Source: Mytilus californianus (lineage: Eukaryota). Taken from it: a stretch of DNA of 64,000 nt. Where the stretch lies: assembly GCF_021869535.1 (NCBI RefSeq), contig NW_026262701.1, positions 37,386,001 through 37,450,000 of the forward strand, read 5' to 3'. This document shows, piece by piece, positions 9,001 to 15,000 of the stretch. The first letter of the stretch is position 1. Each line of letters starts with the position of its first letter. A program made the position numbers.

Positions 9001-12000
9001 AAAGGGCCTAAATGATAAAATCTATGAGATGACCATTTCTGTTAAAACTTACATGGTTCTGATTGATATGGACAATAGATATCTGCACAACAAAAGATTT
9101 CAACAGTGTAACTCAACATAGACTACTTTCACATTAGCTCATTTTCCCATACATTTCCAATGTCATAATGTTTACATTACAGAAAATGGGGTCGTCTTAG
9201 TGATAACCCTGTAGGGATATCCTAGCCCCTGACAGTTTCTTAATTGCCATTCTAAATGTCTTGAAAATAATAGAAAAAGGCTTTGGGTTTGCCTTGAATA
9301 TTGTTAAATTTTATTTTTATTTTTATAAAAGAATGGCTAAAAAGGATACACCAAGGTCAATGTTGCAAGCATTCATTGAAAATGTTCCAACTACAGCTCC
9401 AGTAAAGAGAACAAGAGCTAGAACAAGATCTCCAGAAGACAGGCATTTCAATGAAACTGTTCCTAATCAGAAAAAGAGAAGAAGATCATCTCTAGCAGTA
9501 AAACAAACACCAAGATCAATGGTAAAGTGTCTATTAACCCTAGCATCAAGTAGATTTCAACAAAACTATAATGCCTTATTTTCATAAAAATTGTTGATAC
9601 AAAAAAGGCTTAAATAAGCTTTGTTTTTTTTAACATTCCTCCTATGGTTAGCTTAATTAGCAGTTTTAAGGTTCCTAATCATAGATGTCATTTTTGAGTG
9701 TTCTCCTTTAGTGCAATAACTGCCTCCTGCATGTGCATTTATATGATTAACTAAAACAGCTTCTTAAACAATATTTATTAATTTTTGCCAGTGGCAGAAA
9801 TTCCTGATCAAGGGGACCCTAGCTAAAGTGACAATTTAAGCTGTATTCTAATATATTCATCAATAACTGCTGCATATTTTGCTGATGAAACATATATATG
9901 CAGGAATAATAAATAAACTACATATAAAATTGACAAATTTTCCTGAAAAATAAATTCATAACATTGAAGGGTACAAGCAAACAGATGTGAAAGCAGAATT
10001 TTTTGTTGTGATATAAATTTCTTTTTGTGGATGCACAAAATTTAAACCCCAAAAAATAAAAAAAAACAAAGAATATTACTATATTTACTTTTTACTTAAT
10101 CCCCATAAAGTGAATTTAGAGACTAAAGCACAAAAACTAATGTTCCTTCAGTTGTCAGAGGTACAACTACATAAGTTTCTGGATCTAAAAGTATGAACTT
10201 GCATGTTTGTCTCTCTATGTGCATAACTATTCTCTGAGTTGATTTAGAGTTAATCAGTATGTGAATCTTTTATTTTTCAGATTGAATCTTATATGCATGA
10301 TCACAAAACACAGACTCCGTTTGTTCGTGTGTTACGTAGACGGTCGAAAACTTTTACTCCAATTACAGAGTCAGGTGATAGAAGTGATGTAATTACACCA
10401 AGAACAGCATTGGAAGGATTTATTAATAATGGTAATCTGTAAAAAGGGATTAAAACATAACGCTTTATGTTAAAAGGGATTAAAACATAACGCTTTATCC
10501 AGGGAATACTTGTCAGATTTCTTTTTTTATTGAAATAGTCCAAATGGTCAAAAGATGCTTTTGTTTTGAATCTTTAAGGGGTCAATGTAGAAATAAGAAG
10601 ATGTGGTATGATTGCCAATGAGACAACTCTCCACCAGAGACCAAATAAAAATTATATTTATTTAGTGTACTGCTTTTTGGAAAATTACAGAAAAAACTAC
10701 TTAGTATTTTAGACAGAAATCAAAGGGAGATAAGTATTTTAGACTATCCAAATCAAAGGAAAATAAGTATTTTAGACAACAGAAATCAAAGGGAGATAAA
10801 TGTGTTCTATGAACATCAATTAAAACCAAGTGTGAACACAATCATTCATGGTATGTGATTTTAACAATGACATCGCAGGCAAACCAAAGAGAACAATGTT
10901 GCTTGGGGGTCAGATGGATAAAAATCAATTTAAAAGTTCTGTGGCTAGTTACTATTAAATTTTTGGGAAATGATATATTTAACTTGTGACCTTGTGAAGA
11001 AGTATGATGAACTAACATCAGACATAACCATCACAGTATATAAATAGAAAAATTTGACAGACAGAATCATTTTGTAGATCCTGCTCTGTAGCTATGAATC
11101 AATCATAGGAACTTGAGTAAATTTTGTTGATCCAATCATGTATTACAGCTTTAACTAAAATCAAACTACTGTGTATTTTTGTGAATTTCGTGGGAATAAG
11201 AGAATCATGCTGTCAATTGTTCAACAAAGTATAAATTGTCTATAGCTAGGCTTGTAATAAAGACTGTAATGAAATATCCACGAAAATACAATTTTTCCTC
11301 AATCCACAAAAATTGGACACATGAAAATAAATGATTCAACAATACTCAAAAACTATCAAAAAAATTACTAGCTTAAATTTTGTTCTCATAATTGTGAATG
11401 AAAATAACATTGTAATATAACTGATGTTAAATGATGAAATGTTGCCTTAAGTGGTATATGTACATATTTTGTTTTAGCACCAGAAGAGACACCAGTCCAG
11501 AGGGCAGTAAATGAGAGTGAGCTGGATAGTGAATCAGATATCATCTTGCCTAATGAAACCCTTCATGTGACTCATTCACCAATGTAAGTAGCAGAGGGAA
11601 ATATTGTATTATAGCATTTATGTACTACTATTATTAATTGTTGCACCAGTAAGAAAATTGATATCTTTAGGATTTTGAAAGTATGAGTCAAATATTCTTT
11701 TTTTTCAATTTCAGACATAATGAAGACACTGGGTCAATTACAACTTCACAGAAACAAAGGCAAAACCAACATCATATCACATTACAGCAGTTTACACAAG
11801 GGATGCATAACCTGACCTCAGCTGGTGAGATCATGTGACCTAGTCATGTAATTAATGTAAAATCGTTATCATATGATCATTGAAATGGACTTTACTTTAC
11901 ACATGGAATTTTGTCAACCAAAAAATGATGGAAAAATGTTTGAGGCATACTCAGGGTTTTTGTTTTGCAAAAAAAAAACAATGAAAAAAAGAGGCCATTT

Positions 12001-15000
12001 TTATCTCTCCTGCAAGAAGGCGACATTGCAATCTTACAGTCTTGGATTAAAGTTTTTTGTGAAACCAATAACATTTTTCAGCAATCATTGAATTTTAGGA
12101 ACTTTTACAGAAGCCTTCTCATAACCATCTGGTGTAAAAAAAAATCAATATTTTACAAATAAATGGACTTGATTCATTTTTTCTTCTGTCCAACTTTAGG
12201 TACAGTCTGTGGTTAAAGATTTTACACTTGAATAACCTTGTCAAACCTTTATGCAAATTTACAAAACTTGAACAGAAGCATTTTCATAATCAAGAGATAG
12301 CCTTCTGAGCAAAATTAGATTTGTATTCATTTTTCTGTATTTTCCTGATAATACACTTAGTATTTTGTTTTGGCATTCAATATTTCACTTTTACACTGAC
12401 AGCAGCAGTCACAGCAAGAAAAAGGGTTCCACTGAATCCTTAACAACTTTGAATATAGCCAATGTAGGCTGATAGGGTCATAAAACACTAAGTGGTCAAT
12501 CTTCAAAACAACAGTCTACAAAAAACTACATAAAAAACAAAAAACTGAGCAATACAAACCTCATCCAAAACCAGGGTGATATCAGGTGCTCCTGGAGGGA
12601 AAGGATATCCAGCTTTACATGTGGCAATGGTCGTGTTGCTCATGGTAAGTAGACATTTTGTATTAAATCTCACTCAGTGATGTCATGATCAAGAAAATGA
12701 GGATGGAAGAATGGCTACAACCATTTGGTAAAAATTCATCCAACATAGAGCAGAACTAATTTAATTCTCTCTGGTATTCTGAATATTGATAAAATGATTT
12801 GTACATTTTGTAGTTCATGTAAAAAAAATCCTTACATTTCAGGATTCTAAAATGAATATATCCCAGAGGCGGATTTAGGGGGGCCCGGCCCCTCCCCTTT
12901 TGTGTGAAAAATTTAGTTGATTATATAGGGAATCACTGAAGCATGACTGGAGCGGGGCCCCTCTTAGGCAGTCAGTGAGCCCCCTTTTATGAAAATTTCT
13001 GGATCCGCCACTGTATCCCTCCACTGAAAAGCATGTCAAAACAGTTAAAATTATTCTTTTTAGATCCAGTGATATTTCAGAATGTTTTCTAATCTTTATT
13101 TTTTCAGCCAATCAGACAAAAGAAAGGATGTTTAGCAGTGATTCAGAAGACACCCCTGAGATTCCTCCAGATGTTACTCTTGATGTACTGGTAGACTCAT
13201 TGAAGTAAGTCACATAAGCTCTGCCATCAGTTCACTTATTTTGCTTTAGTAGCCAACTTCTACGTCATTTAGTCTTATTGGCAATCATGCCACATCTTGT
13301 TATATTCATATATATATAAATAGTGGCATTTGTGTTGTATAAACAGATTTTATTTCCTTATTCTTTAAAAAAAATAGTTACAGTTTAACTTCATTAGTTA
13401 TTGTTTTTTTTTAGCTTTGTTGTCTTGTCTGTGACAAATGTCTTTCAATGAAAAAGTGATGCATTGTTAATAGTATATATATGAATCAGATATGCTATGC
13501 GCTTGTAGAAAGTGATGTTAACAAAATGTCTGTTGTGTTCTGATATATATATATATTTAGCTCATTGTAATCATATTTTGATTGACACAAGTCAGTCGGT
13601 ATACCTATAAAAAAGGTCAACAGTTTTGCAAAATCATTGCCTAAAACAGGAATTTTCCAAAAAAAATGGGGAATTTTACGTAAATTTTATGTTATGAATA
13701 TATTATATTAAACATGTAATGAAATGATGTTGAAATTTATTTTATGTGATTATATAATTCTCCTTATGGGTTTTGTTTTCAAGATGAATAAGATATAGCC
13801 TTTATTTTGAATCTTTTTTCCAGTTCAGAAAGTGATAGAAGTCATATGAGGATGCCACAACAAGACAGGCGACAAAATCTGAATCATATAACATTAGAAC
13901 AGTTCTCACAAGGATTGAAAGAAAAAATAGGTTATATATCATGTTTTAGCTTCCAAGAAATATCTTGCCCAGACATTGCTTTCACCAAATTGAATAAAAT
14001 TATTATATGTATTTTATATTTATTATTATATGTATTTTATACATATACAGTCAGGGATATAACTCTATAGGGTTATTACAGAAAAATAACATACATTTGT
14101 TATTGTGGACTAAAAAATCAAAGAACTGTGATAACATATGTATGTTACATGTTTCAAAGGGACAATATACATCATTAGTTTAGTTAAAATGTATAAAAGT
14201 TCCATTGATATTACTTTTGTCTATATGTATACTTAACTATTGAAAGATATAACAGTTCATAGTTTGCCAATTTTGCATAGTACACCTCTATGTTATTACA
14301 GAAAAAATATGCCTGTAATAACTAAAGGGTTTTTATCACAGCTTCTCTATATCACTTCAAAGCATTTGCTCAGACATACATCATGCTTAATTACAATGTA
14401 TTTTAATTTATTGTAAGAAATAATGACCAGAGCATGTAATGAGGTTCTGCGCAAGTTTCTCAGTAATTCCCAAGTGTCTTATATAATAAGCTACATTCCT
14501 TTAATAACCTAGCCTTGTTATCACAGCTAAGTTTATCCCTTAATAGCCTCGTCTCATTGATTTACCATGGTTAATCAAAAATGAATTAATTTAATTAAAA
14601 AATTAGTTATCAAGGCTATGCATTTAGTTTCTGCGCAAAGTCTCAAGAGTTCCCTAGAGCCCACTATAAATGAAATAATTTTACAAATAACAAACATATG
14701 TTATTACAGATTTAGAAAATTTAAGAAATAAAGAGTAGACAACTCATGAAAGTATCTGTAATAACACACGCAAGTTATTTTCTGTAATAACCCTATCGAG
14801 TTATATCTTTGACTGATATATGTTCAAGTGTAAGTAATTTCAAAACTTTCACTACCCCAGAATCATAGCAAAAAGTGGATTACTGTTCATCTATCTATAC
14901 CAGTGGTCAAATGTAAACACATTTAAATTCAGACGTTTTATCACCCCACACAAACACACATTACACCTAAACACTCATTCTCAACCACCCACTGCTTTTT

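What the first reader, a model, noticed from the sequence alone, without database searches (positions are those of the whole stretch)
11478..13930. Duplicated exon pair carrying a repeated HITLxQFxQG motif (candidate Mis12C site, two copies)
Seen: exons 3+4 (106 and 110 nt) and exons 5+6 (97 and 107 nt) share the same phase pattern (1-2, 2-1). Each pair has an acidic SD/ES exon followed by an exon ending RQN.xHITLxQFxQG(M/L). This indicates an old tandem exon-pair duplication. The I-x-L-x-x-F-x-x-x-L spacing resembles the segment I recall in human CENP-T near the Mis12C-binding region (RRAVDVGAFLRDL). Inference: two Mis12C docking sites, which with three direct Ndc80 sites would make an unusually multivalent adaptor.
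Basis: partly seen in the sequence, partly recalled or inferred. Interest (0 to 1): 0.66.

Follow-up and report, generated by a model that had tools for sequence, protein, structure and literature searches.

The report
Duplicated docking module in mussel CENP-T
A mussel kinetochore gene (CENP-T) carries two tandem copies of a two-exon cassette that resembles the place where vertebrate CENP-T holds the Mis12 complex, so one molecule might hold two, but binding has not been tested.

Summary
Exons 3-6 (11478-11583, 11715-11824, 13108-13204, 13824-13930) have the stated lengths, phases and motifs. Exon 4 and exon 6 are clearly related (BLASTP E=3e-8; 0 of 5000 shuffles). Exon 3 versus exon 5 is not significant within Mytilus. 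It becomes so only through relatives.

The gene is the Mytilus CENP-T orthologue (CENP-T_C 88.4 bits against a cut-off of 28.1). All 5 public Mytilus models include both pairs. Both are conserved about as well as the histone fold.

Each unit has an acidic patch, a hydrophobic/Pro element, a basic patch and a helix of the form hydrophobic-xx-F-xx-G-hydrophobic. It lies just after the Ndc80-type TPR motifs, where vertebrate CENP-T binds Mis12C. The published determinants (an Arg pair plus I/V-xx-F-xxx-V/L) fit copy 2 fully and copy 1 partly.

A full-length profile puts the helix on the fish Mis12C-site motif in 2 of 2 fish. Short-motif tests are not significant. Vertebrates also carry an upstream look-alike yet bind one Mis12C. 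Three TPR motifs are normal for lophotrochozoans. Two Mis12C sites is plausible but unproven.

The parts
11478..11583 (+). Exon 3: upstream half of unit 1. It holds an acidic Ser/Glu/Asp patch, I-L-P-N-E-T-L-H-V, and an S-P site at 11576-11581.
   Evidence: AG/GT sites and frame. It is part of the public model P0001, residues 114-149. 36 of 36 residues are invariant across 4 Mytilus records.
11715..11824 (+). Exon 4: downstream half of unit 1.
   Evidence: Related to exon 6 at E=3e-8 and 0 of 5000 shuffles.
11758..11805 (+). Motif core, copy 1: RQNQHHITLQQFTQGM. It has a single Arg, then L-xx-F-xxx-M.
   Evidence: Read. 17 of 17 residues (165-181) are invariant in Mytilus.
13108..13204 (+). 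Exon 5: upstream half of unit 2. It holds an acidic Ser/Asp/Glu patch, a T-P site and I-P-P-D-V-T-L-D-V. There is no S-P at the position aligned with copy 1.
   Evidence: Similarity to exon 3 is not significant by itself. It is linked through P0006 copy 1 (13 of 3000) and the unit alignment.
13824..13930 (+). Exon 6: downstream half of unit 2.
13867..13917 (+). Motif core, copy 2: RRQNLNHITLEQFSQGL. The Arg pair lies 8 residues before L-xx-F-xxx-L.
   Evidence: Read. 18 of 19 residues (233-251) are invariant in Mytilus.
9333..9521 (+). Exon 1 (end approximate): start codon and two TPR-type (Ndc80C/Spc24-Spc25-type) motifs, DTPRSMLQAF and QTPRSM.
   Evidence: T59-P60-R61 are invariant in 9 of 9 aligned lophotrochozoan proteins.
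10281..10431 (+). Exon 2 (ends approximate): third TPR motif, ITPRTALEGF.
   Evidence: T102-P103-R104 are invariant in 9 of 9.
28080..28223 (+). First histone-fold exon (ends approximate).
   Evidence: Pfam CENP-T_C on P0001 residues 943-1038.
29527..29631 (+). Second histone-fold exon (ends approximate).
30873..30995 (+). Last exon: end of the histone fold, and the stop codon.
   Evidence: The ORF piece holding this exon alone gives CENP-T_C E=0.002, 18.6 bits, below the 28.1 cut-off. The whole public protein gives 88.4 bits.

Best explanation
Exons 3+4 and 5+6 encode two tandem copies of a module of about 70 residues in the disordered N-terminal arm of the mussel CENP-T. Each module contains an acidic Ser-rich patch, a hydrophobic/Pro element (I/L-P-x-x-T-L-x-V), a basic patch, and a short amphipathic helix (hydrophobic-xx-F-xx-G-hydrophobic).

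Shown: the duplication, its age, its presence in all public Mytilus models, and strong constraint on both copies.

Inferred: the module is the lophotrochozoan counterpart of the vertebrate Mis12C-binding region (human about 195-226, chicken 161-216). The Arg(s) would dock on the acidic Nsl1 surface. The L/F/L(M) face of the helix would dock on the hydrophobic surface of Mis12C Head1. Nearby S/T-P or acidic Ser clusters would supply the negative charge that CDK1 phosphorylation supplies in vertebrates.

Further inferred: two modules raise the capacity or avidity for Mis12C. At most this means two KMN networks per CENP-T, on top of three direct Ndc80C sites. Because the exon pair is a phase 1-1 cassette of 216 or 204 nt, it can be duplicated or skipped without breaking the frame. 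That may be why other lineages also carry two copies.

The confidence given is for the Mis12C-docking reading. That the region is a duplicated, conserved CENP-T arm module I hold at about 0.9. That both copies bind a Mis12C at the same time I hold at about 0.2.
For: Gene identity:
- Public model P0001 maps to 13 exons of the window at about 100% identity.
- It scores CENP-T_C 88.4 bits against a cut-off of 28.1.

Duplication.

Both copies kept:
- 5 of 5 Mytilus records returned hold both pairs.
- Exons 3-6 are invariant at 133 of 141 residues across 4 Mytilus records. Exon 8 is invariant at 424 of 593 and the histone fold at 115 of 122.

Position: the units start right after the third TPR motif.

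Published determinants (passages read):
- Chicken R192/R193 and I202/F205/V209, human R209/R210 and V219/F222/L226. RR-to-AA and IFV-to-RRR mutants lose Mis12C (PMC11612794).
- Human R209 sits where Dsn1 R98 and CENP-C R15 sit (PMC11189301).
- Human R214/R215 are needed (PMC8245036).
- Copy 2 has R-R, then seven residues, then L-xx-F-xxx-L.

Links to vertebrates:
- A full-length profile of 9 lophotrochozoan CENP-Ts aligns its helix columns to the fish motif that phmmer aligns to human 214-223, in 2 of 2 named fish.
- Among 17 invertebrate units, 4 (Clarias) and 3 (Polypterus) land on that motif. The upstream look-alike gets 1 and 0. The target covers about 3% of the searched length.
- The pattern 'basic pair, then hydrophobic-xx-F-xxx-hydrophobic' is enriched in CENP-T non-fold regions: 18 observed against 2.2 in shuffles, in 13 of 44 proteins.

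Other two-copy proteins: P0006, Tegillarca, P0042 and P0106.
Against: - No binding or co-fold was obtained.
- Copy 1 has K-Q-R (K-E-R in other Mytilus), not an Arg pair. Copy 2 lacks the S-P that copy 1 and relatives have.
- The composite pattern with S/T-P, basic pair and helix is met by P0006, P0015, P0021 and both fish, but not by the Mytilus protein (0 hits).
- The human PxSVxR motif (PMC5241120) is absent from residues 114-254.
- A bivalve-unit HMM does not score fish motifs above shuffles (8 to 45 of 200 shuffles reach them). The all-invertebrate HMM gives Clarias B 1 of 200 but Polypterus B 19 of 200.
- A 13-row unit profile finds no CENP-T among 177,635 PDB sequences at E<=10.
- Both Mytilus copies land elsewhere in both fish, at chance-level scores.
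- Vertebrates carry an upstream look-alike (human R152-V166). Even so, human CENP-T 2-373 binds MIS12C 1:1. The chicken Mis12C-binding region was narrowed from 121-240 to 161-216.
- The placement sits inside an alignment whose score comes mostly from the histone fold.
Confidence: 0.5

Rival explanations
1. The module is a conserved CENP-T arm motif that binds something other than Mis12C. It may correspond to the upstream vertebrate look-alike (human R152-V166, fish 'motif A'). I found no function for that motif in the papers read.
For: - Human and Clarias carry an upstream unit with L-P-D/E-L, a basic run and hydrophobic-xx-F-xx-(G)-hydrophobic.
- The bivalve units share the I/L-P-x element with it. 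In one search the profile's L-P-N columns fall on the fish upstream unit.
- The short-motif statistics do not separate A from B for the Mytilus copies.
Against: - Helix columns fall on motif B in 2 of 2 fish.
- Landing counts are B 4 and 3 against A 1 and 0.
- Lingula's single unit matches Clarias B (4 of 300 shuffles) and carries a T-P just upstream, as motif B does.
- No other partner is known for this part of CENP-T in the papers read.
Confidence: 0.25
2. Only one Mis12C is bound. The two copies have divided the ancestral determinants and act together on one complex, or one copy is regulatory. Copy 1 keeps the S-P phospho-site. Copy 2 keeps the Arg pair.
For: - The single-unit relative P0021 has both features in one unit (I-N-I-T-Q-S-P ... 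R-R-N-H-N-H-I-T-L-Q-H-F).
- In Mytilus the features are split between the copies.
- Human stoichiometry is 1:1 despite two look-alike motifs.
Against: - Each copy keeps its own complete helix, and both helices are invariant across Mytilus.
- P0042 and P0106 have two copies that each carry the basic run and the helix.
Confidence: 0.2
3. The pairs are alternative cassettes. Transcripts use one pair, the other, or both, giving isoforms of different valency.
For: - Each pair is frame-neutral (216 and 204 nt).
- The exon 6 donor is weak (GTTATA).
- The mytilid-like P0021 has a single, copy-1-like unit.
- The public records are labelled isoform X2, so other isoforms exist.
Against: - 5 of 5 public Mytilus models include both pairs.
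- No transcript data could be consulted here.
Confidence: 0.08
4. Chance resemblance of low-complexity exons; no real repeat.
For: Exon 3 vs exon 5 is not significant within Mytilus.
Against: - Exon 4 vs exon 6: E=3e-8, and 0 of 5000 shuffles.
- The same two-copy layout occurs in relatives, with significant upstream halves.
- The phases are identical.
Confidence: 0.01

Closest known systems
Mis12C-binding region of vertebrate CENP-T (human about 184-230, chicken 161-216)
   Same: - It lies in the disordered arm after the Ndc80C-binding TPR motifs.
- A basic pair sits 8-9 residues before an amphipathic helix with hydrophobic-xx-F-xxx-hydrophobic.
- S/T-P sites lie upstream.
- The helix columns of a full-length profile fall on the fish counterpart.
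   Different: - Two copies instead of one.
- Copy 1 has a single Arg. Copy 2 has no S-P at the aligned place.
- No PxSVxR motif.
- The spacer between S-P and the basic patch is longer.
- A Gly precedes the last hydrophobic residue.
- There is no significant short-motif similarity.
- Binding is untested.
Upstream look-alike in vertebrate CENP-T (human R152-V166; Clarias 168-192)
   Same: L-P-D/E element, a basic run, then L/V-xx-F-xx-G/Q-V/L.
   Different: No function was found for it in the papers read. Human CENP-T binds MIS12C 1:1. The chicken Mis12C region was narrowed from 121-240 to 161-216. I did not see the chicken sequence, so I cannot say where its look-alike lies.
CENP-C N-terminus and the Dsn1 N-terminal 'WRR linchpin', the other peptides that use the same Mis12C site
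   Same: According to PMC11189301 and PMC8245036, an Arg of each peptide occupies the same small site. A hydrophobic helix then follows on Head1. The mussel units have the same two ingredients.
   Different: Different proteins. No sequence comparison was made here.
Variable number of Ndc80C-binding TPR motifs in CENP-T (two in human, one in chicken and yeast; review PMC9252888)
   Same: Valency of the CENP-T arm changes by gain or loss of short docking motifs. Engineered 2x(1-90) chicken CENP-T shows that copy number matters (PMC8844409).
   Different: Here the duplicated element is the putative Mis12C module, not the Ndc80C motif. The unit of duplication is an exon pair.

Membership tests
CENP-T protein family | C-terminal CENP-T-type histone fold above Pfam's gathering score | tested here: met
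   PF15511 at 88.4 bits against a cut-off of 28.1, on P0001 residues 943-1038. P0001 maps to the window's exons at about 100% identity. Tested exon by exon, only the ORF piece holding the last exon matched: 18.6 bits, E=0.002, below the cut-off.
CENP-T protein family | N-terminal T-P-R-x-hydrophobic motifs of the Ndc80C (Spc24/Spc25)-binding type | tested here: met
   Three motifs at residues 6, 59 and 102. The second and third are invariant in 9 of 9 aligned lophotrochozoan proteins. The Clarias TPR motif aligns with a human TPR motif in 7qoo_T. This is met at pattern level only; binding is untested.
CENP-T protein family | Partnership with CENP-W and contact with CENP-HIKM | not testable with these tools
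   No partner sequences were at hand.
Vertebrate-type Mis12C-binding region of CENP-T | Lies in the disordered arm, C-terminal to the Ndc80C motifs | tested here: met
   The units span residues 114-185 and 186-254, directly after the TPR motif at 102.
Vertebrate-type Mis12C-binding region of CENP-T | Arg pair upstream of the helix (chicken R192/R193, human R209/R210) | tested here: inconclusive
   Copy 2: R-R lies 8 residues before the first helix contact (9 in human and chicken). Copy 1: K-Q-R only, with one Arg at the aligned place.
Vertebrate-type Mis12C-binding region of CENP-T | Helix with hydrophobic-xx-F-xxx-hydrophobic (chicken I202/F205/V209) | tested here: met
   L-QQ-F-TQG-M and L-EQ-F-SQG-L.
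Vertebrate-type Mis12C-binding region of CENP-T | CDK1 sites upstream (human T195, and S201 within PxSVxR) | tested here: not met
   No P-x-S-V-x-R in residues 114-254. Copy 1 has S147-P, preceded by hydrophobic-x-hydrophobic as at human T195. Copy 2 has only T201-P further upstream, plus an acidic Ser cluster.
Vertebrate-type Mis12C-binding region of CENP-T | Detectable sequence relationship to the vertebrate site | tested here: inconclusive
   For: full-length profile placement on fish motif B in 2 of 2 fish, and landing counts B 4 and 3 against A 1 and 0, of 17 each. Against: unit HMMs are not above shuffles, there is no PDB hit, and the Mytilus copies land elsewhere.
Vertebrate-type Mis12C-binding region of CENP-T | Physical, phospho-enhanced binding to Mis12C that competes with CENP-C | not testable with these tools
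No co-fold was run.
Tandem exon (cassette) duplication | Adjacent exon sets with the same phases and significant similarity | tested here: met
   Phases 1-2/2-1 twice. Exons 4 and 6 are significantly similar. Exons 3 and 5 are linked through relatives.

The most novel reading that the evidence does not exclude
Spiralian CENP-Ts have repeatedly duplicated a frame-neutral (phase 1-1) Mis12C-docking cassette. Under this reading one mussel CENP-T would recruit two complete KMN networks plus three direct Ndc80 complexes. That is five Ndc80C per CENP-T against three in human. It would be natural tuning of kinetochore valency by exon-pair duplication. The evidence for repeated events:
- The Tegillarca copies group together with support 99.
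- P0042 and P0106 carry their own pair of near-identical copies.
Probability: 0.17. Interest if true: 0.65.

Novelty: new variant of a known kind. Interest (0 to 1): 0.45.

Why it matters
How many microtubule-binding complexes each inner-kinetochore unit recruits is an active question. Human CENP-T takes one Mis12C and two direct Ndc80C (PMC5241120). In chicken cells the number of Ndc80C per CENP-T decides whether the kinetochore works (PMC8844409).

A natural CENP-T with a doubled, well-conserved putative Mis12C module would show that evolution changes this number through the Mis12C arm too. It would also give a ready pair of sequences for asking which determinants are enough for binding: an Arg pair, an S-P site, or the helix. 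If the module binds something else, it marks an uncharacterised conserved motif of the CENP-T arm, one that vertebrates may share in their upstream look-alike.

I found no paper holding both 'CENP-T' and 'Mytilus'.

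Tried and rejected
- Pfam on each exon separately gave nothing for exons 3-6. One chance-level match appeared (EF_EFCAB10_C, E=0.048, exon 4).
- A word-based homologue search with residues 100-260 of the public model found only the same 5 Mytilus records among 1221 candidates, so the region evolves fast.
- The short unit profile against PDB hit only a Staphylococcus UPF0135 protein at E=0.57. I take this as chance.
- Exon 2 against PDB gave designer pentatricopeptide proteins. 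No single stretch passed; the score is a sum of weak repeats, so I rejected it.
- A unit HMM over 60 proteins found only its own training sequences, the other Mytilus record, and weak matches in P0022, P0024, P0033 and P0038. That makes it circular, and I did not use it as a count.
- The unit tree was unresolved except for Tegillarca c1+c2.
- Complex prediction was not run, because no Mis12C subunits of a mollusc could be obtained.
- Papers read for a function of the vertebrate upstream look-alike gave none.
- Paper search ranked papers without 'CENP-T' first and was uninformative.
- Supplementary files and figures were not visible. These include the alignments in Fig. S4A of PMC11612794 and Fig. 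4A of PMC5241120, and they may show how far the vertebrate motif is conserved.

Full report
What is there.

The window is AT-rich eukaryotic DNA, with 29-38% G+C in 2-kb windows. Their bounds are 11478-11583, 11715-11824, 13108-13204 and 13824-13930. All have AG acceptors behind pyrimidine tracts and GT donors, and their lengths are 106, 110, 97 and 107 nt. Only one frame of each exon is open. Those frames give intron phases 1-2, 2-1, 1-2, 2-1. Each pair adds up to a multiple of three (216 and 204 nt), so each pair is a frame-neutral cassette. Exon 4 reads ...KQRQNQHHITLQQFTQGMHNLTSA. Exon 6 reads ...DRRQNLNHITLEQFSQGLKEKI.

How I searched the spliced gene.

The exon 6 translation alone was too short for the homologue search. 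I therefore sent the open frame around it. That search returned five public Mytilus proteins. One of them, P0001 (M. californianus, labelled 'serine/arginine repetitive matrix protein 2-like isoform X2'), maps back to 13 exons of the window at about 100% identity. All later full-length work used these public records as they stand.

Is the repeat more than chance?

Exon 4 and exon 6 are clearly related:
- 12 of 19 residues are identical, BLASTP E=3e-8.
- The local alignment score is 68 against 22.4 +/- 4.4 in shuffles, with 0 of 5000 reaching it.
- A 31-nt DNA core is 84% identical, with 0 of 2000 shuffles reaching it.

Exon 3 and exon 5 are not significantly alike within Mytilus. BLASTP finds no alignment, and 3255 of 5000 shuffles reach the score.

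Their relatedness shows only through relatives:
- In P0006, an unnamed mytilid-like record, the upstream halves of the two copies match (1 of 3000 shuffles).
- In Tegillarca granosa they also match (3 of 3000).
- Mytilus copy 1 matches P0006 copy 1 (0 of 3000).
- Mytilus copy 2 matches P0006 copy 1 (13 of 3000).

An alignment of whole units runs through both exons of the pair. The introns share nothing apart from the exon 4/6 core. There is no third copy in the window.

What gene.

P0001 scores 88.4 bits on Pfam CENP-T_C against a cut-off of 28.1. One M. galloprovincialis record is named 'centromere protein T' by its source. The arm starts with three T-P-R motifs at residues 6, 59 and 102. The second and third are invariant in 9 of 9 aligned lophotrochozoan CENP-Ts. 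Three such motifs occur in 7 of 8 lophotrochozoan lineages I looked at: Mytilus, P0006, Tegillarca, Haliotis, Gigantopelta, Lingula and Paralvinella. The Solemya model has two. Three direct Ndc80-type sites are therefore the rule in this clade, not a peculiarity of the mussel.

Are both copies used and kept?

All 5 Mytilus records returned contain both pairs. Across four Mytilus records the invariant residues are:
- exons 3-6: 133 of 141
- the histone fold: 115 of 122
- the large disordered exon 8: 424 of 593

The two motif cores are invariant at 17 of 17 and 18 of 19 positions. Neither copy looks like a decaying duplicate. I could not consult transcript data, so alternative use of the cassettes stays open.

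What the unit looks like, and the link to Mis12C.

Aligned units share these parts:
- an acidic Ser-rich patch
- I/L-P-x-x-T-I/L-x-V/I
- usually an S-P
- a spacer
- a basic patch
- I-T-L-x-Q-F-x-x-G-hydrophobic

What the papers say about the vertebrate site (passages read):
- The chicken site (161-216) works through R192/R193 on the acidic Nsl1 surface and I202/F205/V209 on Mis12C Head1. The human equivalents are R209/R210 and V219/F222/L226. RR-to-AA and IFV-to-RRR mutants lose Mis12C (PMC11612794).
- Human R209 sits where Dsn1 R98 and CENP-C R15 sit. T195 and S201 face basic patches (PMC11189301).
- R214/R215 are needed, and a 184-208 peptide does not bind (PMC8245036).

How the mussel units compare:
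- A phmmer alignment of catfish CENP-T to PDB chain 7qoo_T printed human residues 26-223.
- The mussel spacing I-x-L-xx-F-xxx-L equals human V217-x-V219-xx-F222-xxx-L226.
- Copy 2 has its Arg pair 8 residues before the first contact, against 9 in human and chicken.
- Copy 1 has only K-Q-R.
- Copy 1 keeps an S-P preceded by hydrophobic-x-hydrophobic, as at human T195. Copy 2 does not.
- The mytilid-like single-unit protein P0021 has both features in one unit.
- A composite pattern with all three elements hits P0006, Tegillarca, P0021 and both fish: 5 hits in 44 proteins against 0.04 in shuffles. It does not hit the Mytilus protein, where the elements are split between the copies.

How strong is the homology to the vertebrate site?

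It is mixed, and I report both sides.

For:
- A profile of nine full-length lophotrochozoan CENP-Ts, aligned to the two named fish, places its helix columns on the fish motif that corresponds to human 214-226. This holds in 2 of 2 fish. Most of that alignment's score comes from the histone fold.
- Of 17 invertebrate units aligned pairwise to the non-fold part of each fish protein, 4 and 3 land on that motif. The upstream look-alike gets 1 and 0. The target covers about 3% of the sequence.
- Lingula's unit reaches it with 4 of 300 shuffles.

Against:
- An HMM of bivalve units does not score either fish motif above shuffles (8-45 of 200).
- A 13-row unit profile finds no CENP-T in the PDB sequence set at E<=10.
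- Both Mytilus copies land elsewhere in both fish, at chance-level scores.

A complication.

Vertebrates have a second, upstream look-alike. In human it runs from R152 to V166, with L159-xx-F162-xx-G165-V166. In catfish it lies at 168-192. Yet human CENP-T 2-373 binds MIS12C 1:1 (PMC5241120). In chicken the Mis12C-binding region was narrowed from 121-240 to 161-216 (PMC8844409). I did not see the chicken sequence, so I cannot place its look-alike. Two look-alike motifs therefore do not by themselves mean two Mis12C. I found no function for the upstream motif in the papers I read.

Distribution.

The profile search of 1.84 billion representatives gave 1132 hits at E<=0.001, of which 150 were listed. 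Five of the 150 were records I already held. The library has no names, and the look-up of names was switched off. I sorted the other 145 hits by their histone fold against named references. Of these, 96 were closest to fish and were set aside unread, because a human record could be among them. A further 48 were closest to lophotrochozoan references, and 1 was unclassified.

Among the 48:
- P0042 and P0106 each have two very similar units, 70-74 residues apart.
- P0021 and P0040 have one clear unit.
- P0033 and P0038 have one weaker unit.
- P0028 appears, by eye, to have two units with the first helix degraded.
- Most others show no match to my patterns.

With Mytilus, P0006 and Tegillarca this makes at least four two-copy lineages. 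In the unit tree the two Tegillarca copies group together (support 99). The rest is unresolved. The upstream halves suggest that Mytilus copy 1 and P0006 copy 1 are orthologous. So the Mytilus duplication predates that split. The Tegillarca pair is either an independent duplication or has been homogenised.

Verdict.

The duplication is real, old, expressed in every public model and under constraint. The reading as a doubled Mis12C-docking module is the best available one, but it rests on position and pattern more than on demonstrable homology. It has not been tested by binding or co-folding. No paper in the library holds both 'CENP-T' and 'Mytilus'.

Noticed in passing
window 16664-18445 (exon 8): The large disordered exon carries 13 T-P-S-(R/K/Q) sites, mostly D-L-T-P-S-R-R. 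They are generated in part by tandem DNA repeats of 42, 69 and 33 nt (17131-17317, 17411-17564, 17667-17766). This makes a dense array of CDK-consensus sites in the CENP-T linker. It is the least conserved part among Mytilus species (424 of 593 residues invariant).
   Followed up: partly
human CENP-T residues 152-166 (PDB chain 7qoo_T) and Clarias P0013 residues 168-192: Vertebrate CENP-T has an upstream look-alike of its Mis12C-binding motif: a basic run, then L/V-xx-F-xx-G/Q-V/L, preceded by L-P-D/E-L. I found no function for it in the papers read.
   Followed up: partly
window 52505-53710 (+): A 401-residue open frame with DUF1759 (E=1.4e-35) and weak aspartyl-protease matches. It looks like a gag-pol fragment of a retrotransposon.
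   Followed up: partly
window 5465-6664 (-): A 399-residue open frame containing a Y-L-D-D motif typical of reverse transcriptases. It has no Pfam match at E<=0.01.
   Followed up: partly
window 39032-42143 and 42940-46085: A tandem segmental duplication of about 3.1 kb at 96.6% identity. Each copy holds 34-, 96-, 93- and 161-bp repeat arrays, and an open frame of 190 or 239 residues on the minus strand. Only the 239-residue frame was sent to Pfam, and it has no match.
   Followed up: partly
window 19804-20285 and 21662-22141: An inverted repeat of about 480 bp at 90% identity, with arms about 1.4 kb apart, inside the long intron after exon 8.
   Followed up: no
window 48810-49937: An array of about 22 copies of a 51-bp unit at 97% identity. 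It is open in several frames only because of the repeat.
   Followed up: no
window 34844-35791 (-): A 315-residue open frame with a weak FkbM-type methyltransferase match (E=3.3e-4, 21.2 bits, just under the 22.7 cut-off).
   Followed up: no
window 614-907, 1273-1852, 22552-23115, 41309-41733, 45230-45655, 63373-64000; also 12863-13014 in intron 4: A dispersed family of 160-162-bp tandem units recurs across the window. Intron 4, between the two exon pairs, holds a 150-bp element with copies at 37930, 40645 and 44564.
   Followed up: no
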